Positions 18,208-45,080 of a stretch of 64,000 nt of DNA are shown here, in pieces. Numbering within the stretch: position 1 is the stretch's first letter; each line of letters opens with the position of its first letter. The translations under genes were made by a program, and so were the position numbers. The notes under the pieces were generated by a model that made no database searches, had not been told where the DNA came from, and saw only the letters and a list, made by a program, of their open reading frames with translations. The stretch is from Lentisphaerota bacterium (lineage in GTDB: Bacteria; Verrucomicrobiota; Kiritimatiellia; UBA8416; JAQBFJ01): NCBI GenBank assembly GCA_041306605.1, contig JBFZFB010000166.1:1807-65806 (forward strand), given 5' to 3'.

Positions 18208-19389
18208 TCAACCACCAAAAGCTTTGCGCATCTTCTCGCAATAATACTGCACCAGTTCCCATTTCGCATCCGGCGGAATCCGGTGATCCGGACATGGAAT
18301 AAACCCGCCCAGCGCCACAAGCGGTTTCATACGCTCGACTTCCGCGTCAACTGCGGCTTTGTCATGCGCAAAAACAGTCTTGTTCATTCCGCCGACACCG
18401 CGGATATCCTTGCCGTATTTTTCACGCCACGGCGCGATTGAAGCATTCCATGTCCCGACCTCAATCGGAAACATCGTATTCACGCCGTTCTCGAGCCAGA
18501 TAGGAATCAGTGAATCGATCCACCCATCGCAATCGAGAGAAATGATATCGATCCCGTTAGCCTTCAACAGGTCGGTTATTCTTTTATAGTGCGGTCCCAC
18601 ATATTCAGCGAATATCGTCGGAACCACCAGCGGACCGTTCTTGAAACATATGTCCTCCCAGAAATGCGCAAAATCGAATTTCACACCTGATTCGAGGACT
18701 GTTTTGACTTTTCTGTAGCAGAGCATTCCCATTGTATCGATTATTTCACGATAGAGATCTTCATCATCCGCATACAAATAACTGATACCCTCAACTCCCA
18801 TGATATCACGGATATCACCGTAAAGACTTCCGCAATGAAGTCCCAGCGGATTCTTCCTTTCCTGCCCCTTTAGTTTCTGCAACGCCGCTTTATCAACGCG
18901 TTCTTCCTTCCATTCAAAACGCCTCTTGTAATGCTCTTCCCATGACGCACGGTCTTTCAACAGATGATCTATCTCAGCTGGAATCCCGCTTGCATTTGGA
19001 TTTTCCACAACAACCGAACCGAGATGATTCCTGACATGACGTGAACCATCTGGAAATTCTTTCAACACTTTTCTTTCAAATGACGGTATCAACCCGCTGT
19101 TGGAATAGAACATATTCTGCCAGTTGAAATCGAAACCCAGCTTCTGCGCGGCTATATCAGGATCATTCCCGTCCCCGCAGTGTTTCGCCTCCTCCTTCGT
19201 CAAATGCCCTTCCGCCGTCCACTTCTCGATCGTCTCCGTCCACCAGCCGAAATGAACCAGCGGCAAATGATCATATTTCTGATATCTTAAAACCGCCAAC
19301 GCTCTTTCCCTGTTTGTCATATATCCCCCTTTAGATTTTGCTCTCAAATTTATAAGTTCCCGAACCGACAGAAACGATCTTTCTTCCAC
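18208..19389 (-). CDS. URO-D/MtaA-superfamily TIM-barrel protein (paralog 3)
   Basis: 393 aa. The N-terminal NRERALAVLRYQKYDHLP is the URO-D-like signature. C-terminal block IDIISLDCDGWIDSLIPIWLENGVNTMFPIE. Confidence 0.65.
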   Translation of the reverse strand: MEERSFLSVRELINLRAKSKGGYMTNRERALAVLRYQKYDHLPLVHFGWWTETIEKWTAEGHLTKEEAKHCGDGNDPDIAAQKLGFDFNWQNMFYSNSGLIPSFERKVLKEFPDGSRHVRNHLGSVVVENPNASGIPAEIDHLLKDRASWEEHYKRRFEWKEERVDKAALQKLKGQERKNPLGLHCGSLYGDIRDIMGVEGISYLYADDEDLYREIIDTMGMLCYRKVKTVLESGVKFDFAHFWEDICFKNGPLVVPTIFAEYVGPHYKRITDLLKANGIDIISLDCDGWIDSLIPIWLENGVNTMFPIEVGTWNASIAPWREKYGKDIRGVGGMNKTVFAHDKAAVDAEVERMKPLVALGGFIPCPDHRIPPDAKWELVQYYCEKMRKAFGG

Positions 19390-26691: not shown

Positions 26692-27732
26692 TTATTTCCT
26701 CCCTGCTTTTTCTGTGTATTCACGGAACAGTTTTATATAAATTTTATAATTCCCCAGAGAAACACCCGGCGGAGTCTGATGATCAACCGATGGAATAAAT
26801 CCGCCCGATTTCATTACCGGAAGAAGCCGCTCAAATTCAGCGCGCATCTCTTTTTCGCCTTTAGACATAACCATTTTATCATACGCGCCAAGCATCAGAA
26901 ATTTGGGATATCTTTGACGTATTTTAGCCACATCAACACCCGCTTGTCTCTCAAGCGGATAAACACCCTCTATCCCGGCTTCTTCCATCCACGGGATCAT
27001 CTCCGTGATGTCACCATCACTGTCAATAAGAACCTTTGTGCCGGATTTCTTCAGAACCGGAATCAGCTTCTGATAATAAGGCAACAGAAACTCTTTAAAC
27101 AGTTCATACGACAACATCGAACCGTGATTATAAGACATGTCCTCGGCCAAACCGATCATGTCCGGTTTCAAAACAGGAAACAGCGCTTTCATGGCCCGGA
27201 TATGAAACTCCGTAAGATCACTGTTGATTCTGTGCATGAGCTCGGGATAGTCATAGAACGCGTAAAGATGTTTTTCGATTCCGAAAAGCGTTCTGGGAAA
27301 CCAGAAAAAACCGTCCAGCCAGATACGGATGATGATCTCGCCCCTCTCGTGCTGTTCACGCCGATTCATAACGTCTTTCATCAAACCTTCTATTGATTCA
27401 TCAGTGTACAAATACGGAAGTATGGCTTCGTACGTTTTCTCATCTTCTATTATACCGGCGCCATGTGACGCCGGATTAGGACACTTGCCTGATCTCGGGC
27501 CAGCTCCCAAACAGATCATCTTATCTATTCCAAAGTACGTATGAGAACCATCCCATGTGGTATCCTGAGGCATGCCTTCTTTCTTCCAGCGATCAATAGT
27601 CAGATCCCACCACGCGGCCCACTCCACCATAGGCAAACGGTCAAACGGCCTGAAATCCAGCGCCGCATTAAATCTTTCGCGACAATTCATTTCCTTCATC
27701 CTTTTCACGCCTTTCCGCAATATAACAAACAC
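26692..27732 (-). CDS. URO-D/MtaA-superfamily TIM-barrel protein (paralog 4)
   Basis: N-terminus MNCRERFNAALDFRPFDRLPMVEW and C-terminal block KVLIDSDGDITEMIPWMEEAGIEGVYPLE. Separated by only 3 nt from the M24 peptidase gene. Confidence 0.65.
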   Translation of the reverse strand: MFVILRKGVKRMKEMNCRERFNAALDFRPFDRLPMVEWAAWWDLTIDRWKKEGMPQDTTWDGSHTYFGIDKMICLGAGPRSGKCPNPASHGAGIIEDEKTYEAILPYLYTDESIEGLMKDVMNRREQHERGEIIIRIWLDGFFWFPRTLFGIEKHLYAFYDYPELMHRINSDLTEFHIRAMKALFPVLKPDMIGLAEDMSYNHGSMLSYELFKEFLLPYYQKLIPVLKKSGTKVLIDSDGDITEMIPWMEEAGIEGVYPLERQAGVDVAKIRQRYPKFLMLGAYDKMVMSKGEKEMRAEFERLLPVMKSGGFIPSVDHQTPPGVSLGNYKIYIKLFREYTEKAGRK

Positions 27733-28124
27733 ACTTCCGCCATTAAATGAAGCGCCATTACTATAAATATAACTCCATATTTGACAAGATATTAACCCGC
27801 ATTTTGCGATTTGATCAATTTGCTGTAAATCGCTCCTCTACGGCCCTTTTACCAACACTTTGGCTTTCAGTAACGCAGCATGACAGGCGCGCATGTGTCA
27901 TTGGGATTTACCACGGAGTCACGGAGACTCGCGAATACCGCCAGTCCGCTCTGCGGTCTGCCGCCATTCGCTCACCGGTTTGCATGGAGAGAAAGAGTTT
28001 GCCAAACCATCCTTTGAAAAAGAGTTCAGTCGCATGATAGGCCATGGAGAGGACGACGCGGCTGTGGGTGCGAGGCCCGCCGCGGGCCGAAGCTACCCAC
28101 CAGCCGGTTGTTGTGTGCCTCCAT

Positions 28125-28475
28125 CTACTCCACAAACTCGACTCGCAACGTGCCGTGAGGGGTGTAAGCACAGAGAGTGATGAACCGGTTGTCATCCGGG
28201 AATCTAACCCTCTTGTACGCTCGCATCCTGTCCAGAATGTCCCCCCAGTCTTGCGACATCAGATCCCGGCGTCGGACGGTCTCCGGAATATCGAACTTCA
28301 CAAGGAAGTCGTCGATCTTGCCCCGGAGATAATCGGGGGTTGACACTTCTCGATTCCACGCGACGTGTGCCAGCCACATCAACGGGTGCATAACCTCGGA
28401 GTGGCCTGCACTTGGACTCTTGAGGCCTTGCATTGCTATTTCGATCAAGATGTCCGACAGTTTCCTTTGTTCCAT
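28125..28475 (-). CDS. Hypothetical small protein (116 aa); no recognisable family
   Basis: Protein-like composition. GGAAGG RBS 5 nt upstream of ATG 28475. The nested palindrome at 28487-28530 sits immediately upstream. Divergent from the MNT gene. Confidence 0.4.
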   Translation of the reverse strand: MEQRKLSDILIEIAMQGLKSPSAGHSEVMHPLMWLAHVAWNREVSTPDYLRGKIDDFLVKFDIPETVRRRDLMSQDWGDILDRMRAYKRVRFPDDNRFITLCAYTPHGTLRVEFVE

Positions 28476-28486
28476 TTTGCCTTCCG

Positions 28487-28530
28487 CTGAATATGTATTA
28501 ATTTGACGTCAATACAAACAATATTCAGCT
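28487..28530. promoter_or_regulatory. Nested palindrome / candidate operator: GCTGAATAT-N26-ATATTCAGC enclosing a TGACGTCA core
   Basis: 9-bp perfect inverted arms (28487-28495 and 28522-28530). The centre contains the 8-bp perfect palindrome TGACGTCA (28505-28512), itself flanked by GTATT/AATAC. It lies in the divergent promoter region between the 28125..28475 ORF and the MNT gene. Confidence 0.5.
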
Positions 28531-28693
28531 CGATGTGAAACTAAACTACTATATTTTGAATTATGATGGCGCTGTATTTTGGTCCTGTCAAATATGAAAT
28601 AGCGTGAAATCGGAACAGGCAGGGCGGAATATAGAATTTCTTTCAACAAATAATCTAACTTGAAAAAAGAACAGAAAGCGCCATAATTAGATC

Positions 28694-28993
28694 ATGATAA
28701 AAATTGACGATATTAAAAAAATAGCATTACCGGCGTGTCGGACATTCAATGTGCGCCGGCTGGATGCTTTTGGATCAATCGCGCGAGGCACCGCCTCGTC
28801 ATCAAGCGATGTAGATATGATTGTCGAATTCACCGAGCCTGACAAAAATCCAGCAAAACGTTTCTTTGGTCTTCTTCATCAGTTGGAGGACTCTTTGGGT
28901 TGCAATGTTGACCTCATCACCATAAACAACTTGCGAAATCCTTATTTCAAGACACATATCCTGAAAGAAAGGATTCTCATTTATGAAGGATGA
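28694..28993 (+). CDS. Minimal nucleotidyltransferase (MNT/MntA-like, HEPN-MNT antitoxin-type), orphan
   Basis: 99 aa with FGSIARGTASSSSDVDMIVEF, the GS-x9-13-D-x-D polymerase-beta-superfamily NTase motif. No HEPN (Rx4-6H) partner ORF detected on either side. Confidence 0.75.
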   Translation: MIKIDDIKKIALPACRTFNVRRLDAFGSIARGTASSSSDVDMIVEFTEPDKNPAKRFFGLLHQLEDSLGCNVDLITINNLRNPYFKTHILKERILIYEG

Positions 28994-29144
28994 TATTAAC
29001 CCCATCCCTAAAGTCGTTTCCCTAATTCTGACTTTTTAAATTCTTAATTTTTCTTCTTCTCCATTGACTCAATACCCACATTCATCCACACTTTCCCGTG
29101 ATTTTAAGACCAATGGGAAATCTAAAAAACAGGGAATAAACACC

Positions 29145-31370
29145 ATGAAAAAAAACTGCTCTTATTCAATTATTCTCACGATCCTGACCATGCTTATTAT
29201 CAATTCCTCAACTCTACCCTCTGCCGTCGCCGAAGTGAGCCTTCCTAAAATATTCGGCAGTCACATGGTTCTCCAGCAGGAACAGCCTATCACCATCTGG
29301 GGCTGGGCCAATCCAAATGAAAAAATAACCGTGCAACTGTCATCCCAAACACAAGAAGTGCAGGCAAATGAAAAAGGAGAATGGAAAGCCATCCTGCCGG
29401 CACTGAAAGCTGGCGGCCCTCATACACTCACCGTCAAAGGATCAAACATAATCACATTCGAGGATGTACTTGTAGGCGAAGTATGGCTGTGCTCCGGACA
29501 ATCTAACATGGAAATGGGTATGACTATAATTCAGAACGGTCAGCAGGAAACTGCGGCCGCCAATTACCCCGATATCCGTCTCCTTATGGTGGCCAACCGC
29601 TGGACGCCTGAACCGCAGAAAGATATTGAAGGAACCTGGAAAGCATGCACGCCGGAATCCGCCGCCGAAGGCGGCTGGGGCGGCTTTTCAGCTTGCGCCT
29701 ACTTCTTCGGACGCGAACTGCACAAAACACTGAAAGTGCCGATCGGCCTGATTGACGCCACCTGGGGCGGCACACGCATCGAATCATGGACACCGCCTGA
29801 AGGTTTCGCTGCGGTTCCAACATTTAAAAATGATCTCAACCTCATCCTGATGGGCAACCCCGGCTCTTCTGTTCACAAACAACGCCTCGAACATCTTTTC
29901 CGGCAAACAGAGGAATGGATTTCCGCGACAAAAACCGCCATGAGCAAAGACCTGCTTGAATCTCCAATGCCGGCATACCCGCCTGAACTCGTTTTCCCGC
30001 GCGACCTGCAGAATCCCACCGCGCTCTACAACGGAATGATCCACCCGCTTTGTCCGTTCGTATTGCGCGGCGCCATCTGGTATCAGGGCGAATCGAACAA
30101 CGGCGAAGGCATGCTTTATGCCGAAAGAATGAAAGCTCTCATCGGAGGCTGGCGCAGTATCTGGTCCGCAAAAAATGGCGAATACCCCTTCTACTTCGTC
30201 CAGATCGCGCCGTTCCAGTACGGTATTTACAACATGCCCTCACAGACTGAACAGGAGTTGTGGGAAGCACAGGCGGCCGTGGCAAGGGAAATACCCGGCA
30301 CCGGTATGGCGGTTATAAACGACATCGGCAACATAAAGGACATCCATCCGGTCAACAAACAGGATGTAGGCAAGCGGCTCGCCATGATGGCGCTGGCAAA
30401 AACTTACGGCAAAAAAGACATCGTCTACTCCGGACCGGTTTTCAAGGATATGAAAATCGAAGACAATAAACTCCGTATAAGTTTTGACCACACCGGCAGT
30501 GGACTTGCCAGCCGCGACGGCAAACCGCTCGACTGGTTTGAAATCGCAGACACTGACGACGGATGGTTTGTCAAAGCCGACGCTGTAATAGACGGGGAAA
30601 CAGTTGTTCTTTCAGCCGCCGGTGTCAACAAGCCGGTTGCAATGCGCTTCGCATGGGACGAGACAGCTGTTCCCAACCTGATGAACAAGGACGGGCTCCC
30701 TGCCGGCTCTTTCCGTGCAGGCACAATACCACAGCGCGACTGGATGAGCGCGAATGTGCCGGAAGCAAAAAATTTCACACTTGTCTATGACCTTGATCTC
30801 GCCAAACTAGCACATGATATCAAGTATGATACGGATAATCACACCTCAATCAGCAAGCCGTTCGACCGCATAGCATACAGCCTTGAACTGCAGGGGGGAA
30901 CAGGAAGCATGCAGTGCGTGTATGTCTCAATGGATGCTTTCACGCAGGATCCCGCCAAAATTGGCATTCCGTCCGCTAAATCCGGATCGTTTTTCCAGCA
31001 GAGTATAACCAATATGAACGTTTTCTCGAACGTAAAAGGCATCACCACTGGTATTGGCCTTGCCAGCGGCAATATCGAATTATGGCCGCACAACTATGCC
31101 CAACTCAACACGGCAAATGTGCCTAACGCGTCCGGACAGATATATGACTGCGGCGACCAGCCTGTCGAACCACTGGACGGCTACGGCTCCATGCAGATTC
31201 ACAACAATGAAGCCAAACAGACACTGCTGGCAATCAATCACTGGCCGGCAGGCGTAAACGCCGATATAGGCATTGGGAACAGGGCGTCAGACAACACCGA
31301 CTGGGCATTCGCGGGCAACGCCCAGTCTTTCAAACTCAAACGCCTGCGCGTACTGGTCCACTGCAAGTAA
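29145..31370 (+). CDS. Secreted SGNH/DUF303 esterase (sialate O-acetylesterase-like) with extra C-terminal beta-sandwich-like domain
   Basis: The ORF track gives 29064..31370. Preferred start is ATG 29145 (MKKNCSYSIILTILTMLIINSSTLPSAVA, signal peptide, AGGGA RBS). Signature GEVWLCSGQSNMEMG and later WYQGESN as in 9-O-acetylesterase/DUF303 enzymes. Confidence 0.75.
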   Translation: MKKNCSYSIILTILTMLIINSSTLPSAVAEVSLPKIFGSHMVLQQEQPITIWGWANPNEKITVQLSSQTQEVQANEKGEWKAILPALKAGGPHTLTVKGSNIITFEDVLVGEVWLCSGQSNMEMGMTIIQNGQQETAAANYPDIRLLMVANRWTPEPQKDIEGTWKACTPESAAEGGWGGFSACAYFFGRELHKTLKVPIGLIDATWGGTRIESWTPPEGFAAVPTFKNDLNLILMGNPGSSVHKQRLEHLFRQTEEWISATKTAMSKDLLESPMPAYPPELVFPRDLQNPTALYNGMIHPLCPFVLRGAIWYQGESNNGEGMLYAERMKALIGGWRSIWSAKNGEYPFYFVQIAPFQYGIYNMPSQTEQELWEAQAAVAREIPGTGMAVINDIGNIKDIHPVNKQDVGKRLAMMALAKTYGKKDIVYSGPVFKDMKIEDNKLRISFDHTGSGLASRDGKPLDWFEIADTDDGWFVKADAVIDGETVVLSAAGVNKPVAMRFAWDETAVPNLMNKDGLPAGSFRAGTIPQRDWMSANVPEAKNFTLVYDLDLAKLAHDIKYDTDNHTSISKPFDRIAYSLELQGGTGSMQCVYVSMDAFTQDPAKIGIPSAKSGSFFQQSITNMNVFSNVKGITTGIGLASGNIELWPHNYAQLNTANVPNASGQIYDCGDQPVEPLDGYGSMQIHNNEAKQTLLAINHWPAGVNADIGIGNRASDNTDWAFAGNAQSFKLKRLRVLVHCK

Positions 31371-31373
31371 TAT
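31299..31373. repeat. Direct repeat copy A (~75 bp) = authentic 3' end of esterase gene 29145..31370
   Basis: gactgggcattcgcgggcaacgcccagtctttcaaactcaaacgcctgcgcgtactggtccactgcaagtaat. It is about 77% identical to copy B at 32003-32075, including a 36-bp perfect core ttcaaactcaaacgcctgcgcgtactggtcca(c/t)t. Confidence 0.85.
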
Positions 31374-31444
31374 TCATGAAATCCTTCGCGAATAGCGCGC
31401 CGATCCGCGTTATTACTGATAATTTAAAATTAAAACAAGAAGAC

Positions 31445-31473
31445 TTGACTTGTAGCTACACTATAACTACACT
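31445..31473 (+). promoter_or_regulatory. Putative sigma70-like promoter of brnTA with a 10-bp perfect palindrome operator (TGTAGCTACA) in the spacer
   Basis: TTGACT (31445-50), 17-nt spacer, TACACT (31468-73), then ATG at 31480. TGTAGCTACA at 31451-31460 is a perfect palindrome. RHH/BrnA-type antitoxins typically autorepress at such sites. Confidence 0.45.
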
Positions 31474-31479
31474 GTAATT

Positions 31480-31767
31480 ATGAAATTGCTGAGATTTGAA
31501 TGGGATGAAACAAAGAATCTGGAGAATCATCGCAAGCACGGTGTATCATTCCTTGAAGCTCAAACGGTTTTCTTCGATGAAAATGCCATTGAATTTTACG
31601 ACGATGAGCATTCCGAATGGGAAGACAGATTTTTGCTCCTTGGACTAAGCACCAAGTTAAGAGTGTTACTGGTTTGTTATTGCCTGCGCAAAAAGGGCTC
31701 TGTCATCCGGATCATTTCTGCAAGAAAAGCCACAAAAAAAGAACAGGAACTATACCCCAAGAGGTGA
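31480..31767 (+). CDS. brnT: BrnT-family (DUF497) type II toxin, ribonuclease
   Basis: 95 aa, MKLLRFEWDETKNLENHRKHGVSFLEAQTVFFDENAIEFYDDEHSEWEDRFLLLGLS...IISARKATKKE. The FEWD-x-K-x-x-N-x-x-KHG-V-x-F-x-EA motif is diagnostic of BrnT. Confidence 0.8.
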   Translation: MKLLRFEWDETKNLENHRKHGVSFLEAQTVFFDENAIEFYDDEHSEWEDRFLLLGLSTKLRVLLVCYCLRKKGSVIRIISARKATKKEQELYPKR

Positions 31768-31770
31768 ACT

Positions 31771-31989
31771 ATGAAAAACGAATACAACTTAAGCAGAATG
31801 AAAAGCCGGCCAAATCCATATGCCAAGCGGCTCAAAAAGCAATTAACGATCCGCATGGGCGTGGATATCATCGATTATTTCAAGACCATGGCGGCACAAA
31901 CCGGCATACCCTATCAAAATCTGATCAACCTGTATCTCAGAGAATGCGTCATCACGCGGCGGAAGTTGCAGATAAAGTGGGCGTCATAA
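31771..31989 (+). CDS. brnA: BrnA-family antitoxin (RHH/CopG-like)
   Basis: 72 aa, 3 nt after the brnT stop. Typical BrnA size and composition (KSRPNPYAKRLKKQLTIRMGVDIIDYFKTMAAQTGIPYQNLINLYLRE), and the usual toxin-first brnTA order. Confidence 0.7.
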   Translation: MKNEYNLSRMKSRPNPYAKRLKKQLTIRMGVDIIDYFKTMAAQTGIPYQNLINLYLRECVITRRKLQIKWAS

Positions 31990-32002
31990 GATAAATAATC
32001 AG

Positions 32003-32075
32003 GACTGGACATTCTCCGGCAATGCCGGGTCATTCAAACTCAAACGCCTGCGCGTACTGGTCCATTATAAATAAT
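32003..32075. repeat. Direct repeat copy B (~73 bp) = orphan, in-frame, diverged esterase C-terminus (…DWTFSGNAGSFKLKRLRVLVHYK*)
   Basis: gactggacattctccggcaatgccgggtcattcaaactcaaacgcctgcgcgtactggtccattataaataat. It translates to a variant of the esterase tail DWAFAGNAQSFKLKRLRVLVHCK* (4 substitutions, stop conserved), so it looks like the scar of a lost paralog rather than a target-site duplication. Confidence 0.8.
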
Positions 32076-32130
32076 TTACAAAAGCCGGTTTTTATGCGTA
32101 TTGTATAAATACAGGAAATTAAGGGTTTGA

Positions 32131-33021
32131 ATGAACAATTTTCGATATGACACATCAGGGCACTGGTACAAAGGTAACACTCACATCCACAGCACCGCGT
32201 CAGACGGCGGATGCGACTTTAAAAAGCTCGCCGCCATGTATCATTCTGCCGGCTATGATTTTCTGTTCCGCACCGACCATTGGATAACATCAGACACGAA
32301 AGGCGATACAGAGCCTTATCCCCTGCTCTGGCTGGATGGAATGGAAATGGACGGACAGGACCATTCGGGCTCTTATTTTCACGTGGTATGCCTGGGCCGG
32401 GTAACCGGCGTAAAACGCGAGGACGGATTAGAGGCTGGATTGCAGTCCGCGCGCCGGCAGGGAGCGCTGACCGTTGTTGCCCACCCGCACTGGTGTGGCA
32501 ATTCATTGGAAGACTGCCAGCGATTGCAATTTGACGGCATTGAAGTGTACAACCATGTATGTCAGTGGCTCAACGGCAAGAGCAATGGCTTGGTACACTG
32601 GGACGCCGCCCTCATGTCCAATCCCGATACACTGGCGTTCGCGTCGGATGACGCCCACCTGTGCCCCGAACACCCCGGATGGAACGGAGGCTGGATCATG
32701 GTCAACGCCCCGGAATGCACATATACCGGAATCATGAACAGCATTCACCGCGGTAATTTTTACTCAACCTGCGGCCCTGACATCTATTCACTGTCATTCG
32801 ACGGAACCAATCTGCACGCGACTATGTCACCCGTGCGTTTCGCCCGATTGGTCGGGCCTGGCGCTAACGGCATGAGAACCGGTTCTTTCGATGGAAAACT
32901 GATCGAAACCGTCAGCTTTCCCCTTCCGGACGACTGGAAATATGTCTATCTCGAAATCGAAGACGAACATGGCCGCAGAGCATGGACTAATTCACTGTTC
33001 ACAAAAAATGGTAATCATTAA
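32131..33021 (+). CDS. PHP-domain metal-dependent phosphoesterase/hydrolase (CehA/McbA-like)
   Basis: 296 aa. N-terminal GNTHIHSTASDGGCDF matches the PHP H-x-H...S-D-G motif, with later His/Asp ligands (VVAHPHW, DDAHL). Its stop at 33019-33021 abuts the ATG 33022 of the next gene. Confidence 0.7.
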   Translation: MNNFRYDTSGHWYKGNTHIHSTASDGGCDFKKLAAMYHSAGYDFLFRTDHWITSDTKGDTEPYPLLWLDGMEMDGQDHSGSYFHVVCLGRVTGVKREDGLEAGLQSARRQGALTVVAHPHWCGNSLEDCQRLQFDGIEVYNHVCQWLNGKSNGLVHWDAALMSNPDTLAFASDDAHLCPEHPGWNGGWIMVNAPECTYTGIMNSIHRGNFYSTCGPDIYSLSFDGTNLHATMSPVRFARLVGPGANGMRTGSFDGKLIETVSFPLPDDWKYVYLEIEDEHGRRAWTNSLFTKNGNH

Positions 33022-34119
33022 ATGCAAACATCACGCGATATCATAGACGGTCTTTTCAGGAACAAACCTGTTGAACGCTTGGGATTATACGACTCGCCAT
33101 GGGACGACACCTTTACAAAATGGGTCAAAGAAGAATCATACCCGGCGGATGATAAAGGAAATCCGGTAAACGCAACAGATTTCTTCAATTTCGACATGAG
33201 CGGTTGCGGAGGATGGTTCAACAAGATGCCGATCAAGGACCAAAACGAGATCATTGAAGAATCCGACGAATGGAAGGTAACTCGTAACGGAGCCGGCGCC
33301 GCTTTGAAATACTGGAAACATAAATCCGGCACACCGGAACACATAGACTTCCGCATGACATCCCGCGCTGTCTGGGAAAAAGATTACCGCCACCATCTGC
33401 TCGCCGTTGACAGTTCGCGACTCAACACAGAAAGCACTAGAGAAAACCTGAAAAAACAGCAGGCAAATAATCGCTGGGCATTCTACGGCGACTTGTTCAT
33501 CTGGGAAATGATGCGCTGCAGTCTTGGCGATATATGCATGTACGAATCACTTATTCTCGATCCTGAATGGATTCACGACTACAACCGGGTCTATACCGAT
33601 TTCTTCAAAGCGCACTACAAGATACTTATTGAAGAAGCCGGCAAACCGGACGGAATCTGGCTCTATGAAGATCTCGGCTTCAATAAGGGCCTGTTCTGCT
33701 CACCATCCATTCTCGAGGAACTGATCTTCCCCTACTACAAAGAAATGGTGGATTTCTTCCACAGTTACGACCTGCCCGTTGTTCTGCATTCGTGCGGCGG
33801 CATAAAGGAAGCACTGGGTTTGATTGTCGGAGCCGGATTCGACGCGCTTAACCCCATGGAAGCAAAAGCGGGATGTGACGTCATCTCATTCGCCAAACAA
33901 TACGGCGATAAACTGGCGTTCGTAGGAGAAATGGACGCGAGAATTTTCGAGGCGGGCAATAAAGATCAAATCCGCAAAGAAGTTATACGCCTGTGCACAT
34001 CACTAAAAGATATCGGCGCGCGTTACGTTTTCGGATCCGATCATTCCATATCACCGAATGTGAAACTGGAAAATTTTAAATACGCCATTGATATATACAG
34101 AGAAAACATGATGTATTAA
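33022..34119 (+). CDS. URO-D/MtaA-superfamily protein (paralog 5) with an MtaA-like H-x-C...C putative zinc site
   Basis: 365 aa. N-terminus DIIDGLFRNKPVERLGLY. C-terminal VVLHSCGGIKEALGLIVGAGFDALNPMEAKAGCD carries H-x-C-G plus a downstream Cys, as in corrinoid:CoM-type methyltransferases (MtaA/MtbA). The other four paralogs have Asp/His at these positions. Translationally coupled to the PHP gene. Confidence 0.65.
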   Translation: MQTSRDIIDGLFRNKPVERLGLYDSPWDDTFTKWVKEESYPADDKGNPVNATDFFNFDMSGCGGWFNKMPIKDQNEIIEESDEWKVTRNGAGAALKYWKHKSGTPEHIDFRMTSRAVWEKDYRHHLLAVDSSRLNTESTRENLKKQQANNRWAFYGDLFIWEMMRCSLGDICMYESLILDPEWIHDYNRVYTDFFKAHYKILIEEAGKPDGIWLYEDLGFNKGLFCSPSILEELIFPYYKEMVDFFHSYDLPVVLHSCGGIKEALGLIVGAGFDALNPMEAKAGCDVISFAKQYGDKLAFVGEMDARIFEAGNKDQIRKEVIRLCTSLKDIGARYVFGSDHSISPNVKLENFKYAIDIYRENMMY

Positions 34120-39537: not shown

Positions 39538-39729
39538 GAGACAGGGCCTGCCCTTAAGTGTCTTGCTTCAACCTCACAGAACAAACCACCACTTCCTCTT
39601 TAATTAAGCATCAATATAATACTCTAAATCTGATTTGTCACGTCATTCGACATGATTGGTTCGACATGATAAATCATACACAGAATCGGCATTATTGAGC
39701 CATTGAATAAGAACCGGACGGTCTATAAG
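39538..39729. repeat. Left copy of bipartite direct repeat (83-bp block 39538-39620 plus 30-bp block 39700-39729) bounding the defense-gene remnant segment
   Basis: gagacagggcctgcccttaag..tgtcttgcttcaacctc(a/g)cagaac(a/g)aaccaccacttcctctttaattaag.atcaatataat followed by ccattg(a/g)ataagaaccggacggtc(t/a)taa. The second copy is at 41221-41308 / 41348-41375. Contains an AGGGCctGCCCT tight palindrome. Confidence 0.75.
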
Positions 39730-40019
39730 CCTGCATTCTGTGCCACGCGCGAATTCCTGCGCGTCTTCCGTAAACCGGCTCCATCATAATCAGAATCATC
39801 AAGCCCATTTTCACGACAGAGGTAAGCTTGAAAACCGTCATCGGCTTTTCCTAAATCATGCAACAATCCCGCATTCCAAGCCCATTCCGATGATTGAAAG
39901 GCAGAGGCAAACTTCCCCGCCATTTCTGCAACATTCTTCAAATGCACATCCAACGGCTGCCACTTTTCCTTTGGCTGGCCTTCCAAACTGTGTGCGTAAT
40001 ATCTTTTCTCACTTTTCAT
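39723..40019 (-). pseudogene. Cas3 HD-nuclease N-terminal fragment (gene remnant)
   Basis: MKSEKRYYAHSLEGQPKEKWQPLDVHLKNVAEMAGKFASAFQSSEWAWNAGLLHDLGKADDGFQAYL matches the Cas3 HD-domain N-terminus pattern (AHS...W..L..HL..VA..A..FA...GLLHD.GK..FQ). Only ~65 aa are recognisable, then unrelated sequence and a stop. No helicase domain, no other cas genes, no CRISPR array. Confidence 0.5.
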
Positions 40020-40056: not shown

Positions 40057-40905
40057 TCACTGCAGTTTTTTATCAGATTCTTTTTCTTTGAGATAGTTAT
40101 GTTTTGAGATAATCGGGCGTTTCAGTCGTTTTTCCAGAGCCTTCCGCGCATTCCCGGCTATTTTGCCGCCAGCATGAGCATCGTCTTTTAATTTTGGCAT
40201 TCCCTCCGAATCTTCCGTGCGGTGTATTTCCGTTGTCGCACGCTCTCCAAGCATTGTGAATATCAGCTCAAAATCATCCATGTGATCTCGCAGGTTTTCC
40301 CGTTTCAGCCCTTTCAGCTTCTTGTATTCGTTCGGAGTAACACCAAATGCCGCCTTTGATATCTGGGCTGTCAATATCTCGTAATCCTTGTCCTCCCGCG
40401 CCCCTCGTTTCTGCCATTCGTCAGTCAATTCTTCTCTAATAGCAATGCCGCGCATACGCTTTTCAATCCAGTCGTCGCTGTATCCTTTGAGCTTATACAA
40501 CATCCTTGTACGCTTTGAGGCAAGTTCAGGATCTTCTATTTCCTGCACCCGCTCGTAGCCCACCTTCGCCAGCCATCTCTTGAACGGCTCGGCTTTCGGG
40601 GAGGGAATGGATTGAATTAACCGGAATATGCCTTCGGTATTCCAACAGTACATTTTCTGCTTTCCACCCGCAGTGTCCACTTCAAGCATAAGGGGTGGTA
40701 CAAAGTGTACCCCTCCTTTGGCGAGAAGTTCCGACAGCTCCTTCTCCCTCTCTTTTAATCGTTTGAAATATTGTGCAGGATCTGTGGATCCAGTTAATGA
40801 TTCAATAATGTCATTGATCACAAACCACCATTCGTTCTGGTATAACATTTTTCTGATCTGTTTGCCTTTGAATAAAGCTATTCGTGTATCTTTTTCCGTA
40901 CTCAT
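40057..40905 (-). CDS. DinD-like DNA-damage-inducible protein (Bro-N domain plus DinD C-terminal domain)
   Basis: 282 aa. The N-terminus IALFKGKQIRKMLYQNEWWFVINDIIESLTG is Bro-N-like. The C-terminal KGLKRENLRDHMDDFELIFTMLGERATTEIHRTEDSEGMPKLKDDAHAGGKIAGNARKALEKRL parallels E. coli DinD (KGLKKNQKILDHMGSTELAANLFRATQTEEKLKRDG...). Recalled from memory, not searched. Confidence 0.55.
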   Translation of the reverse strand: MSTEKDTRIALFKGKQIRKMLYQNEWWFVINDIIESLTGSTDPAQYFKRLKEREKELSELLAKGGVHFVPPLMLEVDTAGGKQKMYCWNTEGIFRLIQSIPSPKAEPFKRWLAKVGYERVQEIEDPELASKRTRMLYKLKGYSDDWIEKRMRGIAIREELTDEWQKRGAREDKDYEILTAQISKAAFGVTPNEYKKLKGLKRENLRDHMDDFELIFTMLGERATTEIHRTEDSEGMPKLKDDAHAGGKIAGNARKALEKRLKRPIISKHNYLKEKESDKKLQ

Positions 40906-41220: not shown

Positions 41221-41375
41221 GAGACAGGGCCTGCCCTTAAGCATTAGTGTCTTGCTTCAACCTCGCAGAACGAACCACCACTTCCTCTTTAATTAAGATC
41301 AATATAATCTTTTAATCTGTCCACGCATGCAATCAATATTTTTTCAACCATTGGATAAGAACCGGACGGTCATAA
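41221..41375. repeat. Right copy of bipartite direct repeat (41221-41308 and 41348-41375)
   Basis: See 39538-39729. Lies ~250 bp from the tRNA-Thr gene. Confidence 0.75.
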
Positions 41376-41624: not shown

Positions 41625-41700
41625 TGGAGCCAACGGTCGGGATCGAACCGACGACCTGCTCATTACGAATGAGCTGCTCTACCAACTGAGCTACGTTGGC
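41625..41700 (-). tRNA. tRNA-Thr (anticodon CGT)
   Basis: Reverse complement GCCAACGTAGCTCAGTTGGTAGAGCAGCTCATTCGTAATGAGCAGGTCGTCGGTTCGATCCCGACCGTTGGCTCCA folds as a canonical cloverleaf: 7-bp acceptor stem GCCAACG/CGTTGGC, D stem GCTC/GAGC, anticodon stem GCTCA/TGAGC with loop TTCGTAA (anticodon CGT), T arm GTCGG-TTCGATC-CCGAC, encoded CCA. Confidence 0.85.
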
Positions 41701-42991: not shown

Positions 42992-44626
42992 ATGGATGAC
43001 AAGAACGGGCAAATAGCATATTATCCCGAGTTCAGCTGGAGATATTCCTTGAAAGACATTGTTTCAAAAATAAGGACAAAAAAGACAAAAACCCGCGAAA
43101 AACAGGCCTGCAGGGCGCCCTCAGAACGCCAGCCTCTGCATAAAAGGCCGATTGCTGGCTTTTTTATAGTTTTTCTGCTCTGGCTGGCAACAGCAGGCCT
43201 GCTTTGTTTTCAGCGTATGATGGAAAATCCCAGCTGGTCGCTGGAATTAACGCTCCAACTGGCGAGTGATGTGACATTTCTGCTTATCAGCTTGTTTGCC
43301 ATAGGTGTATTTATGGAGGCGGTAAACCCCGGTTTCACCAGGAAAAACTCCAAGATATTGCTTATTTCCCTTGTATCGCTGGTTTCCATTATTCCGGCAG
43401 GCGCCATTTTTTACATGGCGGGCCGGGTAACCCTGATCCAGCATGATGTTGCTATTTTTCTTATACCTTTCGCCATGGCACCCATGCTTGCGACGATTTT
43501 GACTAATAGAAGGATCGGTATAGCGGCGGGTGTATGGACATCATTGGTGACGGCATTTATTGTGGGGCGTAGTTTTCCTCTTTTTATTACAGGCATGATT
43601 GTGACTGTATTGACATCTCAGGGCATTCACAGGGTCCGCACAAGGACCAAAGTGCTGAAAATAGGGCTTGCCGCAGGACTTGCGGAGATACCGTGTGTGT
43701 TTGCCATTACATCTTTAAAGGGTGTTGACGCGGATATTATCTTGATCCTGAACCAGGCGTCGGCCTGTGTAGTCAGCGGCTTTTTATCGGCAATAATAGT
43801 GCTGTTGATTCTGCCTTTTTTTGAGACCTTGTTCCATATTACAACAGACATAACACTGCTTGAACTGTCGGACATGGGCCATCCCCTGCTGGAGCGTCTG
43901 GCGATAGAAGCGCCGGGCACATATCATCACAGTCTGGTTGTGGCAAACCTGGCGCAGGCGGCGGCCGGCGAGATTGGTGCCAACACGCTCCGCACAAGGG
44001 TATGTTCTTATTTTCATGATATAGGCAAACTGACGAAGCCGGATTTTTTCACAGAGAACATTCAACTGCAGGCCAATCCGCATGATGATCTCCCGCCGAG
44101 CATGAGCACGCTGGTTATCATTGCTCATGTAAAGGAGGGTTTAAGCCTTGCCATGCATTACAAACTGCCCGATCCTGTAATACAGGTTATTCAGGAGCAT
44201 CACGGCACCAGCCTGCTGTCGTATTTCCATCATAAAGCCGTATCACAGATGGAATTCGCATTGACTCACGAAGTAGCGCCGGCAACAAACGGACAGGCGA
44301 AAATAAACGAAGCCGACTTCAGGTATCCCGGCCCGAAACCAATTTCACGCGAGTCCGCGATCATCTGTCTGGCGGACGCGGTGGAGGCGGCTTCCCGGTG
44401 CATGGAGAAGATCACACCACCCCATATTGAAGGTCTGGTCAATGAGATAATAAACACCCGGCAGATTGACGGACAGCTTGATAATTGCCATCTTACGCTG
44501 GCGGATCTGACAAAAATCAAACGATCTTTTGTAATTTCGTTGTTGAACATGTTTCACACCCGGATATCCTATCCAAAAGATGAAAATAGAGATAAACAAC
44601 AGACAAAAACTAGCCAGGGTGAATAA
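42992..44626 (+). CDS. 7TM-receptor-linked HD/HDIG phosphohydrolase (PgpH/YqfF-like, candidate c-di-AMP phosphodiesterase)
   Basis: Multiple TM helices, then an HD domain HHSLVVANLAQAAAGEIGANTLRTRVCSYFHDIGKLTKP and downstream His/Asp motifs. The conserved pgpH-ybeY neighbourhood supports the call. Confidence 0.65.
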   Translation: MDDKNGQIAYYPEFSWRYSLKDIVSKIRTKKTKTREKQACRAPSERQPLHKRPIAGFFIVFLLWLATAGLLCFQRMMENPSWSLELTLQLASDVTFLLISLFAIGVFMEAVNPGFTRKNSKILLISLVSLVSIIPAGAIFYMAGRVTLIQHDVAIFLIPFAMAPMLATILTNRRIGIAAGVWTSLVTAFIVGRSFPLFITGMIVTVLTSQGIHRVRTRTKVLKIGLAAGLAEIPCVFAITSLKGVDADIILILNQASACVVSGFLSAIIVLLILPFFETLFHITTDITLLELSDMGHPLLERLAIEAPGTYHHSLVVANLAQAAAGEIGANTLRTRVCSYFHDIGKLTKPDFFTENIQLQANPHDDLPPSMSTLVIIAHVKEGLSLAMHYKLPDPVIQVIQEHHGTSLLSYFHHKAVSQMEFALTHEVAPATNGQAKINEADFRYPGPKPISRESAIICLADAVEAASRCMEKITPPHIEGLVNEIINTRQIDGQLDNCHLTLADLTKIKRSFVISLLNMFHTRISYPKDENRDKQQTKTSQGE

Positions 44627-45080
44627 CATTCAACTGAAGAAACTTGTTCTTTACCTCATGGACAAGGTCCATAAGCTTGATCCTGCGTCTTGGGATGAAA
44701 TATCCATTGTCATAACAGATGACGCGGGAATAAAAGCCGTTAATCAGAAATATCTGAATAAAAACCATGTTACTGACGTAATAAGTTTCCGTTACGCGCC
44801 GGCACCCGGCATAAGTGATCTTCCGAGCGGTGAAGTTATCGTAAATCTTCAGAGGGTCCTGGAGCTGGCACGCAAGCGTAAAAATCTGGAACCATGCCGC
44901 GAGCTGGCTCTTTACATAGCACATGGATGCGACCATCTGGCGGACCAGACGGATTACGACACTGTCAGCCGCAACAGAATGCGCCGCCGCGAACTGCAAT
45001 GGCTGGCAGGCGCACCATGGGGCCAAATCATGAAAACTGTTTTCTGCGCAACAATATTCTTTATTATTAACTTCTCATGA
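44580..45080 (+). CDS. ybeY: Endoribonuclease YbeY (rRNA maturation factor)
   Basis: 166 aa, TDVISFRY...GEVIVNLQRV...LYIAHGCDHLADQTDYD, matching the YbeY H-G-x-L-H-L-x-G-Y-D-H metal motif region. Overlaps the pgpH-like gene by 47 nt. Confidence 0.7.
   Translation: MKIEINNRQKLARVNNIQLKKLVLYLMDKVHKLDPASWDEISIVITDDAGIKAVNQKYLNKNHVTDVISFRYAPAPGISDLPSGEVIVNLQRVLELARKRKNLEPCRELALYIAHGCDHLADQTDYDTVSRNRMRRRELQWLAGAPWGQIMKTVFCATIFFIINFS

What the first reader, a model, noticed from the sequence alone, without database searches (positions are those of the whole stretch)
31299..32075. BrnT/BrnA toxin-antitoxin cassette embedded between two copies of an esterase gene tail (75-bp coding direct repeats)
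The last 75 bp of the DUF303 esterase gene (…DWAFAGNAQSFKLKRLRVLVHCK*) reappear 704 bp downstream as a diverged, still in-frame copy (…DWTFSGNAGSFKLKRLRVLVHYK*) with its stop retained. The brnT-brnA pair and its promoter/operator lie between them.

The second copy looks like the last remnant of a paralogous esterase gene, so the TA cassette occupies the place of, or was captured between, two esterase paralogs. The direct repeats (36-bp perfect core) allow excision or inversion by homologous recombination. The TA module may stabilise this accessory segment.
Basis: seen in the sequence. Interest (0 to 1): 0.55.

Follow-up and report, generated by a model that had tools for sequence, protein, structure and literature searches.

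The report
Toxin-antitoxin cassette beside esterase-tail relic
A small, self-contained BrnT/BrnA toxin-antitoxin cassette of a kind that normally travels as an integron gene cassette sits between an intact esterase gene and an old, non-coding copy of that gene's last 24 codons; the relic is older than the present cassette junction, and the locus is an instructive but fairly ordinary scar of past DNA insertion.

Summary
The last 72 nt of the SASA (DUF303) esterase gene recur 704 bp downstream at 83% identity. The perfect core is 32 bp, not 36. An intact brnT-brnA pair with its own promoter lies between the copies.

New findings:
- This brnTA family is an attC-bounded, integron-type gene cassette in many metagenomic relatives. 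The window copy keeps only promoter-to-stop and has no attC.
- Copy B is untranslatable. Three related strains (93-94% DNA identity) carry it upstream of the same PHP-like gene, 15 nt shorter and with unrelated DNA on its left. The relic therefore predates this clade and is not tied to the present brnTA junction.
- Derived and ancestral states switch sides across the core.
- A second brnTA locus (L134) is bracketed by a 339-nt duplicated hrpA tail.

Best reading (about 0.4): the two tails are attL/attR-like scars of an old recombinational insertion that brought a replacement tail, as e14 and phage 21 do at icd. The cargo has since been eroded or exchanged down to the addictive TA operon. The paralog-remnant reading (about 0.3) is not excluded. 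No empty site was found. Interest is moderate.

The parts
29145..31370 (+). Intact sialate O-acetylesterase-family (SASA/DUF303) gene. It is 741 aa from the ATG at 29145; the mechanical ORF starts at TTG 29064.
   Evidence: Pfam SASA E 6.6e-16. It is 100% identical to P0001 (741 aa). The family is about 735 aa long with the conserved tail ...NPDWTFAGNAGSYQxKRLRVLVRCK.
31299..31376 (+). Repeat copy A: the functional last 24 codons of the esterase (DWAFAGNAQSFKLKRLRVLVHCK*) plus 6 nt.
31299..31327 (+). A-specific hairpin, GACTGGGC-N13-GCCCAGTC. The three nucleotide changes that give copy A its unusual Ala and Gln residues all convert non-pairs of the B/outgroup sequence into Watson-Crick pairs.
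   Evidence: flags it as terminator-like on the minus strand.: -15.3 kcal/mol, z -2.85; no equivalent fold in copy B, L003 or L172. Alignment.
31329..31360 (+). 32-bp perfect core in copy A
31377..31439 (+). Left arm. It is not alignable to any relative and contains a small hairpin, AATAGCGCG-CCGATC-CGCGTTATT (31391-31414). Its origin is unknown: native esterase 3' UTR or a remnant of earlier cargo.
   Evidence: no significant attC-like fold, z -0.8
31445..31473 (+). brnTA promoter-like site TTGACT-17-TACACT, with the 10-nt palindrome TGTAGCTACA (31451-31460) as candidate operator. The -10 ends 6 nt before the brnT ATG.
   Evidence: The block is conserved in L085-L088 and L090.
31480..31767 (+). 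brnT, RNase-type toxin, 95 aa
   Evidence: Pfam PF04365 E 6.9e-29. 80-85% identical relatives occur across several phyla. All strongly conserved residues are kept except H67Y, which is also seen in 6 of 119 relatives. A 1-nt insertion shortens the C-terminus by 2 aa and removes the usual ATGA overlap with brnA.
31771..31989 (+). brnA, ribbon-helix-helix antitoxin, 72 aa
   Evidence: Pfam PF12441 (30.3 bits, cut-off 28) and PF14384 (26.8 bits, cut-off 26.1). The C-terminus KWAS* is conserved in relatives.
31990..32002 (+). 13-nt stub after brnA. Homology to relatives ends at TAAGA. Where relatives carry the attC R'' box (GGCCAAC...), the window runs straight into copy B.
32003..32080 (+). Repeat copy B: non-coding relic of an esterase tail (DWTFSGNAGSFKLKRLRVLVHYK*). 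The part from about 32018 onward is conserved in related strains.
32033..32064 (+). 32-bp perfect core in copy B. It is identical in L175 and has 1 mismatch in L173.
32075..32104 (+). Promoter-like site TTTACA-18-TATTGT for the downstream gene. It starts at the end of the relic, and the AT-enriched end of the relic lies just upstream of it.
   Evidence: Identical in L173-L175.
32131..33021 (+). CehA/McbA-family (PHP-like) metallohydrolase gene
   Evidence: NCBIfam NF038032, 85 bits. Relatives.

Best explanation
The two esterase tails are the left and right scars of an old recombinational insertion at the 3' end of the esterase gene.

Incoming DNA carried its own copy of the gene's last ~24 codons. 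The gene therefore stayed intact (copy A) and the other tail copy was stranded downstream as a relic (copy B). This is the geometry known from e14 and phage 21 at icd. It could arise by a single crossover in the shared core or by homology-facilitated integration.

The cargo between the scars was later eroded or exchanged. In this genome only a minimal, self-sufficient brnTA operon is left, running from promoter to stop codon. It derives from an integron-type gene cassette that has lost its attC site.

BrnT is an RNase toxin held in check by the labile RHH antitoxin BrnA, which presumably represses the palindromic promoter. Any deletion that removes the operon, including recombination between the 32-bp cores, would leave toxin without antitoxin. 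That would explain why the TA operon is the surviving piece. The relic probably survives because it adjoins the promoter of the next gene.

Shown:
- the anatomy of the locus
- the cassette family and its attC sites in relatives
- the age of the relic
- the mosaic polarity of the two tails

Inferred:
- the insertion mechanism
- the order of events
- TA activity and addiction
For: 1. In relatives the brnTA family is an attC-bounded cassette.
- In one subfamily, homology starts exactly at CG|TTCTGTG and ends at CACAGAAC-hairpin-CACG|TT, with unrelated flanks. The attC fold has z -3.7.
- In the window's own subfamily, ACG|TTGGCY and GGCCAAC bracket the operon.
- BrnT/BrnA is listed among integron-associated TA genes (PMC7370490).
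- The window keeps only about 10 nt upstream of the -35 through 5 nt past the stop.
- Cassette G+C is about 42% against about 53% in the flanks.

2. The repeat ends at the stop codon. The flanks of the core differ by 13 of 46 nt, while the 32-nt core is identical.

3. Polarity was read against two outgroup genes and 119 protein tails.
- Left of the core, copy A is derived at 4 sites and copy B at 1.
- Right of the core, copy B is derived at 4 sites and copy A at 0.
- Fisher p is about 0.04. This is the pattern expected if two different parental tails exchanged in the core.

4. The relic is at least as old as a clade with 6-7% DNA divergence, and the DNA to its left differs between strains. The interval is therefore a turnover site.

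5. Tight junctions fit erosion limited by selection: the operon is trimmed to promoter and stop, and the relic abuts the next gene's promoter.

6. An independent brnTA array fragment in L134 is bracketed by a 339-nt duplicated hrpA tail (92.6% identity) whose outer end is also the stop codon.

7. The same window holds another decayed insert bracketed by ~100-nt repeats, next to tRNA-Thr.
Against: - No integrase or other recombinase lies in the interval or among the 29 window ORFs scanned against Pfam, which include all large ORFs from 15.9 to 49.7 kb except the 166-aa ORF at 44580-45080.
- No empty site and no element-borne tail was found anywhere. The nearest esterase homologue is only 72% identical.
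- The rare FKL codons lie inside the core, so both parental tails must have come from very close relatives. This sits uneasily with about 28% divergence in the flanks.
- The polarity test rests on 9 sites and 2 DNA outgroups.
- The clustered changes have other explanations. Three of copy A's derived changes build a hairpin. Copy B's four are all GC->AT and lie just upstream of a promoter.
- The L134 relic shows plain pseudogene decay without mosaicism.
- One such case among 54 loci is not above the background rate of nearby direct repeats, about 1% of positions.
Confidence: 0.4

Rival explanations
1. Paralog remnant. The ancestor had two tandem esterase genes. The second was deleted down to its last 24 codons, and the brnTA cassette later landed by illegitimate recombination in the gap. 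Occasional gene conversion made the core identical.
For: - The repeat ends at the stop codon, as expected for paralogs that share only coding homology.
- The relic predates the present brnTA junction, and its left edge differs by 15 nt between strains, as expected for stepwise erosion.
- The window is rich in paralogous glycan-degradation genes, including several URO-D-like genes and rhamnosidases.
- It needs no recombinase.
Against: - No second esterase is present in the window. None lies beside the two homologues examined or upstream of 80 PHP relatives.
- Gene conversion that leaves a 32-nt identical block between tails about 28% diverged on both sides is hard to obtain.
- The L134 case involves hrpA, which is normally single-copy.
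- The side-switching polarity is not predicted.
Confidence: 0.3
2. Duplication created when the cassette, or an earlier cargo, was inserted. A long staggered break or a replication template switch copied the last 72 nt, and the two initially identical copies have since diverged.
For: - Leaving aside the two clusters of change, copies A and B differ at only 4 of about 62 sites. This is similar to the 6-7% divergence of the clade that shares the relic.
- Copy A's cluster builds a hairpin. Copy B's cluster is all GC->AT next to a promoter. Local selection could therefore explain them.
- L134 shows a decaying copy of a duplicated tail.
Against: - No known bacterial insertion mechanism gives target duplications of 72-339 nt.
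- The end of the duplication coincides with the stop codon in both cases. A random staggered break does not predict this.
- Under uniform decay, copy B's changes (4 of 5 within 10 of 72 nt, p about 0.002) and copy A's (all within the left 30 nt) are too clustered.
Confidence: 0.15
3. Assembly artefact. The metagenome-assembled contig joined sequences from different strains at the shared 32-mer, so the tandem arrangement does not exist in any one genome.
For: - The window comes from a metagenome assembly.
- Independent Logan contigs break exactly at the core (L001 starts 2 nt into it) and inside the esterase gene (L176).
- No Logan gene call matches BrnT or BrnA exactly.
Against: - A chimeric join at a shared 32-mer makes a hybrid, not a duplication. 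Whichever core hosted a join, one source molecule must still carry both cores.
- The contig break at the core shows that both right-hand continuations (core+C and core+T) exist in sample SRR28346265.
- The relic and its flank are confirmed in three other samples.
Confidence: 0.04

Closest known systems
BrnT/BrnA type II toxin-antitoxin system (Brucella abortus prototype; Pfam PF04365 / PF14384)
   Same: - Toxin-first, two-gene operon.
- BrnT_toxin domain, and an RHH (CopG/BrnA) antitoxin of about 70 aa.
- Own promoter with a palindrome.
   Different: - Only remotely related in sequence to the studied prototype. NCBIfam equivalog scores are below cut-off.
- The usual ATGA overlap is lost through a 1-nt insertion.
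- Activity is untested.
Integron gene cassettes that encode TA systems (for example in Vibrio superintegrons and in metagenomic cassette surveys, PMC7370490)
   Same: - Close relatives (60-85% aa identity) are bounded by GTT junctions and a 3' attC hairpin.
- They carry their own promoter and occur in arrays of small cassettes.
   Different: - The window copy has no attC and no neighbouring cassettes.
- No integron integrase was seen.
- It lies in a chromosomal glycan-degradation gene cluster and is flanked by gene-tail repeats.
Integrative elements that replace the 3' end of a protein-coding target gene (e14 and phage 21 in icd; SGI1 in trmE). This comparison comes from general knowledge and was not tested here.
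   Same: - Direct repeats are made of the target gene's 3' end.
- The gene stays intact with one copy, and the other copy is left as a pseudogene fragment at the far end.
- The two copies differ.
   Different: - The interval is only 0.63 kb and has no integrase, excisionase or other element genes.
- Homology extends on both sides of the identical core.
- No circular or empty-site form is known.
Homology-facilitated illegitimate recombination during natural transformation (described for Acinetobacter and Streptococcus). This comparison comes from general knowledge.
   Same: Foreign DNA next to a homologous anchor gene is integrated, with one homologous and one illegitimate junction. This could give a donor tail plus a retained recipient tail.
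   Different: It usually deletes recipient DNA rather than duplicating it, and it does not explain the identical core.

Membership tests
BrnT/BrnA type II toxin-antitoxin | Toxin with a BrnT_toxin (DUF497) domain above the Pfam gathering score | tested here: met
   PF04365: 100.4 bits against a cut-off of 34.5, full-length match
BrnT/BrnA type II toxin-antitoxin | Adjacent downstream RHH antitoxin of the BrnA/CopG family | tested here: met
   PF12441: 30.3 bits against 28. PF14384: 26.8 bits against 26.1. The NCBIfam equivalog is below its cut-off (20 against 60).
BrnT/BrnA type II toxin-antitoxin | Autoregulated promoter with an antitoxin operator | tested here: inconclusive
   A promoter-like site and a 10-nt palindrome are conserved in relatives. 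Binding was not tested.
BrnT/BrnA type II toxin-antitoxin | RNase toxicity neutralised by the antitoxin | not testable with these tools
   Conserved residues are intact apart from H67Y, which is also found in 6 of 119 relatives.
Integron gene cassette | attC recombination site (R''-L''...L'-R') at the 3' end | tested here: not met
   Relatives have it. In the window, homology stops 5 nt after the stop codon and the esterase relic follows. The region has no significant fold. IntegronFinder's model was not run.
Integron gene cassette | 5' boundary at a G|TT junction complementary to its own R'' | tested here: inconclusive
   There is a possible GCG|TTATTAC at 31410, and a 10/11 inverted match between CTGATAATTTA and TAAATAATCAG. 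The sequence is AT-rich and the match could be chance.
Integron gene cassette | Location in a cassette array or next to intI/attI | tested here: not met
   The neighbours are an esterase and a metallohydrolase. No integrase was found among the ORFs scanned.
Integrative element with a replacement gene tail (icd/e14 type) | Direct repeats consisting of the target gene's 3' end, with one functional copy and one displaced copy | tested here: met
Integrative element with a replacement gene tail (icd/e14 type) | Integrase or recombinase gene inside the element | tested here: not met
   The interval holds only brnT and brnA.
Integrative element with a replacement gene tail (icd/e14 type) | Empty site (a single tail) in related genomes | tested here: inconclusive
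   Relatives L173-L175 carry the relic, but their contigs end 56-183 nt upstream of the PHP-like gene. No esterase orthologue above 72% identity was retrievable.
Tandem paralog remnant | An intact second esterase gene at this position in some relative | tested here: inconclusive
   None was found in L003, L172 or L005-L084. None of these shares synteny with the window.
Transposon or IS insertion with target-site duplication | Short fixed-length duplication, terminal inverted repeats and a transposase | tested here: not met
   The repeat is 72-78 nt and diverged. No inverted repeats were found and there is no transposase.
Diversity-generating retroelement (VR/TR pair) | Mismatches confined to adenines of the template repeat, with a reverse transcriptase nearby | tested here: not met
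   Mismatches involve all bases. There is no RT among the neighbours.

The most novel reading that the evidence does not exclude
attC-less brnTA operons may spread between related genomes as recombinase-free mini-elements. On this reading, the operon travels together with a portable copy of a host gene's 3' end and integrates by host homologous recombination within that tail (Campbell-type). This restores the gene and leaves a displaced tail. The TA module then penalises the reverse reaction. The esterase locus here and the hrpA locus in L134 would be two instances.
Probability: 0.12. Interest if true: 0.65.

Novelty: new member of a known kind. Interest (0 to 1): 0.36.

Why it matters
The locus shows an integron-type TA cassette living outside any integron, stripped to the minimum that addiction can protect. 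It sits at a site where DNA has turned over while a 57-72-nt gene-tail scar persisted across strains.

If the tail duplication proves to be linked to how such cassettes enter chromosomes, it would point to a homology-driven, recombinase-free route for TA spread. It would also explain why TA operons are often the last survivors of decayed insertions.

For annotation, it is a reminder that short in-frame 'gene tails' next to TA modules are scars and not genes.

Tried and rejected
- **Empty-site search failed.**
  - Exact-protein look-ups for BrnT, BrnA and the esterase found nothing.
  - The nearest esterase homologue is 72% identical and sits in a different context.
  - 80 PHP relatives from species-representative genomes have no esterase upstream.
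  - The Logan contigs of the source sample break at the core and inside the esterase gene.
- **GGGCGTCA junction idea rejected.** This 8-nt match upstream of both copies is the native brnA end; KWAS* is conserved in relatives.
- **General flanking duplication rejected.** About 13 of 54 loci have flanking repeats, but nearly all turned out to be neighbouring attC sites or array repeats. Only L134 is a gene-tail duplication, and background repeats are frequent enough that one case proves little.
- **attC remnant in the left arm.** Folding was not significant.
- **DGR reading rejected.** Mismatches are not adenine-specific and there is no RT.
- **Rfam.** No hit in 28000-33000.
- **Viral contigs.** The core is absent and there is no close BrnT.
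- **Codon usage.** The esterase, the PHP-like gene and the URO-D-like gene are all mildly atypical, so this does not single out the esterase as foreign.
- **L134 polarity test.** It gave plain decay of the relic, not a mosaic.
- **Literature searches.** No description of TA cassettes flanked by duplicated gene tails was found.
Full report
**1. Observation**

The repeat is real. The repeat finder gives a single family, 31299-31376 and 32003-32080. It is 78 nt long, 83% identical, and spaced 704 nt.

The uninterrupted identity is 32 nt (31329-31360 and 32033-32064), not 36. That 32-mer occurs twice in the window, against none in 100 shuffles. Outside the core, 13 of 46 positions differ. Similarity stops at the stop codon.

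Copy A supplies the last 24 codons of a 741-aa SASA/DUF303 esterase (Pfam; P0001). Copy B is in frame internally, but its frame is closed 10 codons upstream and has no start codon. It is a non-coding relic.

Between the copies lie:
- a 63-nt unalignable stretch
- a promoter-like TTGACT-17-TACACT with the palindrome TGTAGCTACA
- brnT (PF04365, E 6.9e-29)
- brnA (PF12441 and PF14384, both above cut-off)

The insert is about 42% G+C, against about 53% on either side. The downstream gene is a CehA/McbA-type (PHP-like) metallohydrolase.

The wider window is a chromosomal glycan-degradation region. It holds GH116, GH123, GH78, GH106 and GH95 genes and several URO-D-like genes. No integrase was seen. 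The organism's closest PHP relatives are Victivallales/Lentisphaeria.

**2. What the cassette is**

BrnT relatives at 80-85% identity occur in Lentisphaerota, Verrucomicrobiota, Kiritimatiellia, Planctomycetota and even a Methanoperedens MAG. Most sit on contigs under 2 kb. I fetched 80 metagenomic loci.

In one well-sampled subfamily, the DNA alignment shows homology beginning exactly at CG|TTCTGTGATC and ending at GATCACAGAAC-hairpin-CACG|TT, with unrelated flanks. This is the anatomy of an integron gene cassette with its attC site. The hairpin folds with z -3.7.

In the window's own subfamily (L085-L089), ACG|TTGGCY lies about 23 nt upstream of the -35. GGCCAAC follows the brnA stop by 3-9 nt. 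L089 has a 107-nt GGCCAAC...GTTGGCC site. A metagenome survey lists BrnT/BrnA among integron-associated TA genes (PMC7370490).

The window copy aligns to these relatives only from about 10 nt upstream of the -35 to TAAGA just past the stop. No attC can be recognised. It is therefore an attC-less, promoter-to-stop remnant of a mobile cassette.

The operon looks intact. Its only deviations are H67Y, shared with 6 of 119 relatives, and a 1-nt insertion that trims two residues and uncouples the ATGA overlap.

**3. Are flanking repeats a property of the cassette?**

Comparing the flanks of 54 loci gave about 13 with same-strand repeats far above a permuted control. Inspection showed that nearly all are neighbouring attC sites or array repeats.

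One is different. In L134, a brnTA cassette with an upstream attC, truncated at its own R'' box, is bracketed by a 339-nt duplication (92.6% identity) of the 3' end of hrpA (DUF3418). The intact gene's stop codon is fused directly to the cassette end. The stranded copy there is a decaying pseudogene, with five replacements at conserved positions and a frameshift.

Nearby direct repeats of at least 50 nt straddle about 1% of positions in 1 Mb of control loci. One case in 54 is therefore suggestive, not compelling.

**4. Age of the relic**

The 90%-identity cluster of the PHP-like protein led to three short contigs from other samples, L173, L174 and L175. They are 93-94% identical to the window from about 32015 rightward.

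L173 and L175 carry the relic (GGC-C-ATGCCGGGTCA, the core, CATTATAAATAA) and the same promoter region. Left of about 32018 they hold sequence unrelated to brnTA and absent from the window. The window's extra 15 nt of relic match an outgroup esterase at 14 of 15 positions.

Three conclusions follow:
- The ancestral relic was at least 72 nt long.
- It predates this clade.
- The DNA to its left has turned over.

This neither proves nor excludes that brnTA was there originally.

**5. Internal evidence on the origin of the two tails**

I used two outgroup genes (L003 at 72% and L172 at 64%) and 119 protein tails.
- Left of the core, copy A is derived at 4 sites, including T->A at a residue invariant in all 119 relatives and G->Q. 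Copy B is derived at 1 site.
- Right of the core, copy B is derived at all 4 differing sites, and copy A is identical to L172.

The switch has Fisher p of about 0.04. It is what a reciprocal exchange in the core between a consensus-like tail and a derived tail would produce.

There are competing explanations for the two clusters:
- Three of copy A's derived changes complete an 8-bp stem. The hairpin at 31299-31327 folds at -15.3 kcal/mol with z -2.85, and has no equivalent in copy B or the outgroups.
- Copy B's four changes are all GC->AT, immediately upstream of a promoter-like site for the next gene.

Without these clusters the copies differ at about 4 of 62 sites, comparable to the clade's own divergence.

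**6. Explanation**

I favour, at about 0.4, an old recombinational insertion that brought a replacement tail. This is attL/attR-like geometry, as with e14 and phage 21 at icd. The cargo was then eroded or exchanged down to the one unit that deletion cannot remove without cost, the TA operon.

This accounts for:
- the repeat ending at the stop codon
- the identical core between diverged flanks
- the polarity switch
- the tight junctions on the operon and on the next gene's promoter
- the strain-to-strain turnover
- the hrpA parallel in L134
- a second decayed insert in this window, bracketed by ~100-nt repeats next to tRNA-Thr

Against it:
- There is no recombinase.
- There is no empty site.
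- The rare FKL codons lie inside the core.
- The statistics are thin.

The paralog-remnant view (about 0.3) is simpler and fits the age of the relic. It lacks any observed second esterase and does not predict the core or the polarity pattern. A duplication made at insertion (about 0.15) has no known mechanism for 72-339-nt duplications that end at stop codons. An assembly artefact (about 0.04) would make a hybrid rather than a duplication. It is also contradicted by the branch at the core in an independent assembly and by the relic in three other samples.

**7. Function**

This section is inference from the family. BrnT is an RNase toxin. BrnA neutralises it and represses the promoter. Loss of the operon, including by rare recombination between the 32-bp cores, would be penalised. 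That recombination would leave an intact hybrid esterase ending in ...VHYK.

Direct repeats cannot invert the segment.

**8. Novelty**

The parts are all known kinds: a BrnTA module, an integron-type TA cassette, and a gene-tail scar. The combination of an attC-less cassette between diverged gene-tail repeats, with a relic conserved across strains, is a new instance. It is not a new principle unless the homology-driven mini-element reading (about 0.12) holds.

Noticed in passing
window 28694-29046: A mntA-type nucleotidyltransferase antitoxin gene (28694-28993; Pfam NTP_transf_2; NCBIfam MntA below cut-off) is followed by an overlapping ORF of only 18 codons (MKDDINPIPKVVSLILTF*). This looks like a truncated hepT toxin gene and lies immediately upstream of the esterase. 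The esterase is therefore flanked by TA-derived DNA on both sides.
   Followed up: partly
window 39538-39632 and 41221-41319: A second pair of direct repeats, about 100 nt long and 88% identical. It brackets about 1.6 kb that holds a Bro-N domain gene (40057-40905, minus strand) and a 98-aa ORF resembling the N-terminus of a Cas3 HD domain (39723-40019, minus strand). The pair lies next to tRNA-Thr (41625-41700, minus strand). It is probably a decayed integrated element.
   Followed up: partly
window 31299-31327: A strong hairpin is specific to repeat copy A. It is created by the same three nucleotide changes that replace a family-invariant Thr and a conserved Gly in the esterase tail. Its function is unknown. 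Possibilities are a transcript end or stability element, insulation from the TA operon, or a minus-strand terminator.
   Followed up: partly
L134 3453-3791 and 4528-4864: A brnTA cassette with an upstream attC, truncated at its own R'' box, is bracketed by a 339-nt duplication (92.6% identity) of the hrpA 3' end. The cassette end is fused directly to the hrpA stop codon. The stranded copy is frameshifted and carries five replacements at conserved positions.
   Followed up: yes
L085-L164 (e.g. L123 975-1060, L089 534-650): Closely related brnTA operons are bounded by GTT junctions and attC-like hairpins, and many sit in arrays of small ORFs. In L090 the intergenic module is repeated three times at about 1.5-kb spacing. 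The family is 80-85% identical across several bacterial phyla and one archaeal MAG.
   Followed up: yes
L173 1-70 and L175 1-45: In strains 93-94% identical to the window, the DNA left of the relic is an unidentified sequence. A minus-strand reading frame gives ...RAALEARRYREFIEAGLAKEDED. All three contigs end within 56-183 nt of the PHP-like gene, which may indicate a repeated or variable element there.
   Followed up: partly
window 18208-19389, 26692-27732, 33022-34119: Three URO-D/MtaA-like paralogs are scattered among glycoside hydrolase genes (GH116, GH123, GH78, GH106, GH95). This is an unusual association whose role in glycan use is unclear.
   Followed up: no
window 31763-31773: Relative to all close relatives, a 1-nt insertion near the end of brnT moves its stop codon forward (95 aa instead of 97). 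It replaces the ATGA toxin/antitoxin overlap with a 3-nt gap, which could alter translational coupling.
   Followed up: partly
L041 1922-1972 and 2643-2693: In a control locus (Fibrobacterota MAG), a 51-nt repeat at 98% identity flanks a MntA-like nucleotidyltransferase gene. This is another small TA-type gene between direct repeats, and the repeats may be attC sites.
   Followed up: no
window 28125-28475 (minus strand): A 116-aa ORF with no Pfam or NCBIfam match and an atypically high GC3 (0.69) lies next to the mntA remnant. The exact protein is also present in the Logan assembly of the source sample.
   Followed up: no
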